From positions 1,687 through 65,686 of the IMG/VR virus record IMGVR_UViG_3300029705_000054: DNA of 64,000 nucleotides. The stretch is one strand, 5' to 3'. This DNA comes from a virus. Lineage: Duplodnaviria > Heunggongvirae > Uroviricota > Caudoviricetes. A report on this DNA, generated by a model with database tools, continues below. The letters are not shown here.

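What the first reader, a model, noticed from the sequence alone, without database searches (positions are those of the whole stretch)
19999..28500. 8.5-kb protein-free island of tRNAs and structured spacers, including non-canonical tRNAs and orphan tRNA halves
At least 18 tRNA or tRNA-like genes are packed here, several under class-B promoters. Some are oddities. There are two tandem Glu-like tRNAs with C33 and a 12-nt D-loop. There is a class-I-shaped tRNA with anticodon UAG (27050). A Thr(UGU)-like tRNA has a 13-nt variable region and a TCCAAAT T-loop (27643). An Asn-like tRNA has an ATCGTAA T-loop (26905). A 91-nt tRNA-like gene has a perfect acceptor stem and T-arm but no canonical anticodon arm (22980). 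A D-armless hairpin tRNA-like element with a GUA loop lies at about 23157..23224. An orphan T-arm+acceptor+CCA 3' half at about 23985..24029 (aggttcgactcctacaggctccacca) has no matching 5' half nearby. Long spacers are promoter-driven but unexplained, for example 20074..20375 and 21560..21930, with about 700 nt transcribed from the promoter at 21528. These spacers may hide further split or permuted tRNAs, tmRNA-like or other ncRNAs.
Basis: seen in the sequence. Interest (0 to 1): 0.6.

Follow-up and report, generated by a model that had tools for sequence, protein, structure and literature searches.

The report, continued
Noticed in passing
window 47108-47182: A canonical tRNA with anticodon CUA (ARAGORN labels it 'Pyl'; Rfam 58.9 bits). 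Together with in-frame TAGs in many ORFs, this indicates that TAG is reassigned, as in genetic code 15.
   Followed up: partly
window 6423-6494: A second tRNA with an enlarged anticodon loop (ARAGORN '???', 4-base anticodon tcgt; Rfam 44.6 bits), lying outside the island.
   Followed up: no
window 62177-62532: A group I intron (Rfam 78.2 bits) lies between ORFs 61609-62244 and 62530-63021, so it probably interrupts a protein gene.
   Followed up: no
window 40665-44643: An RNA repair set: RNA ligase (40665-42101), AAA_33/KTI12-type kinase with an in-frame TAG (43387-43872) and a metallophosphoesterase-like protein (44095-44643). It lies next to the sigma factor gene. L018 has the same neighbourhood.
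   Followed up: partly
window 30765-33245: An 826-aa protein with a major-vault-protein shoulder domain (PF11978, 91 bits) and a vault repeat. It is conserved in L012, L014, L018, L019, L022 and L023, which is unusual for a phage.
   Followed up: no
window 27800-27820 (also L018 ~9145, L022 ~9252, L025 ~3187): A hairpin inside spacer RNA S15 whose loop is the anti-Shine-Dalgarno sequence CCUCCUUUC. The stem covaries (GUCUCA/UGAGAC against GCAUC/GAUGC).
   Followed up: partly
window 25997-26723; L005 ~20031-20749; L009 ~19103-19821: The HDV-like ribozyme and the GIY-YIG endonuclease gene form one module. It sits after tRNA-Gln in two phages and after tRNA-Asn in a third.
   Followed up: partly
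window 22650-22668 and 24543-24553; inserts in L018, L029-L054: A recurrent non-canonical T-loop, G(G/U)CAG(C/U)A, occurs in two full tRNAs and in most 47-51-nt inserts. In the two full tRNAs it goes with D-loops that lack GG.
   Followed up: partly
L005 19161-19234, L008 19777-19852, L009 18606-18679: tRNA-Lys(UUU) of these relatives has C33 (loop CCUUUAA), the same change as in the window's tRNA-Glu(UUC).
   Followed up: no
window 23293-23333 (compare 24813-24834 and 24942-24963): The promoter cassette carries a ribosome-binding site and an ATG. At 23320 that ATG runs straight into the 5' end of tRNA-Leu(UAA). The cassette therefore looks like a mobile promoter-plus-RBS unit reused in front of RNA genes.
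   Followed up: no
L008 18401-18508: A near-threshold match to the 'drum' RNA motif (40.6 bits against 43) in a relative's island. The window has no counterpart.
   Followed up: partly
window 19217-19981: The gene that anchors the 5' side of the island in most relatives fetched encodes a Pol-beta-type nucleotidyltransferase. Its confident model (pLDDT 94) is closest to ANT(4')/kanamycin nucleotidyltransferase and Hailong HalB, not to CCA-adding enzymes.
   Followed up: yes
window 36602-37789: A 395-aa protein with a weak Hint-module match (PF01079, E = 3e-4). This may be an intein-like or Hedgehog/intein domain.
   Followed up: no
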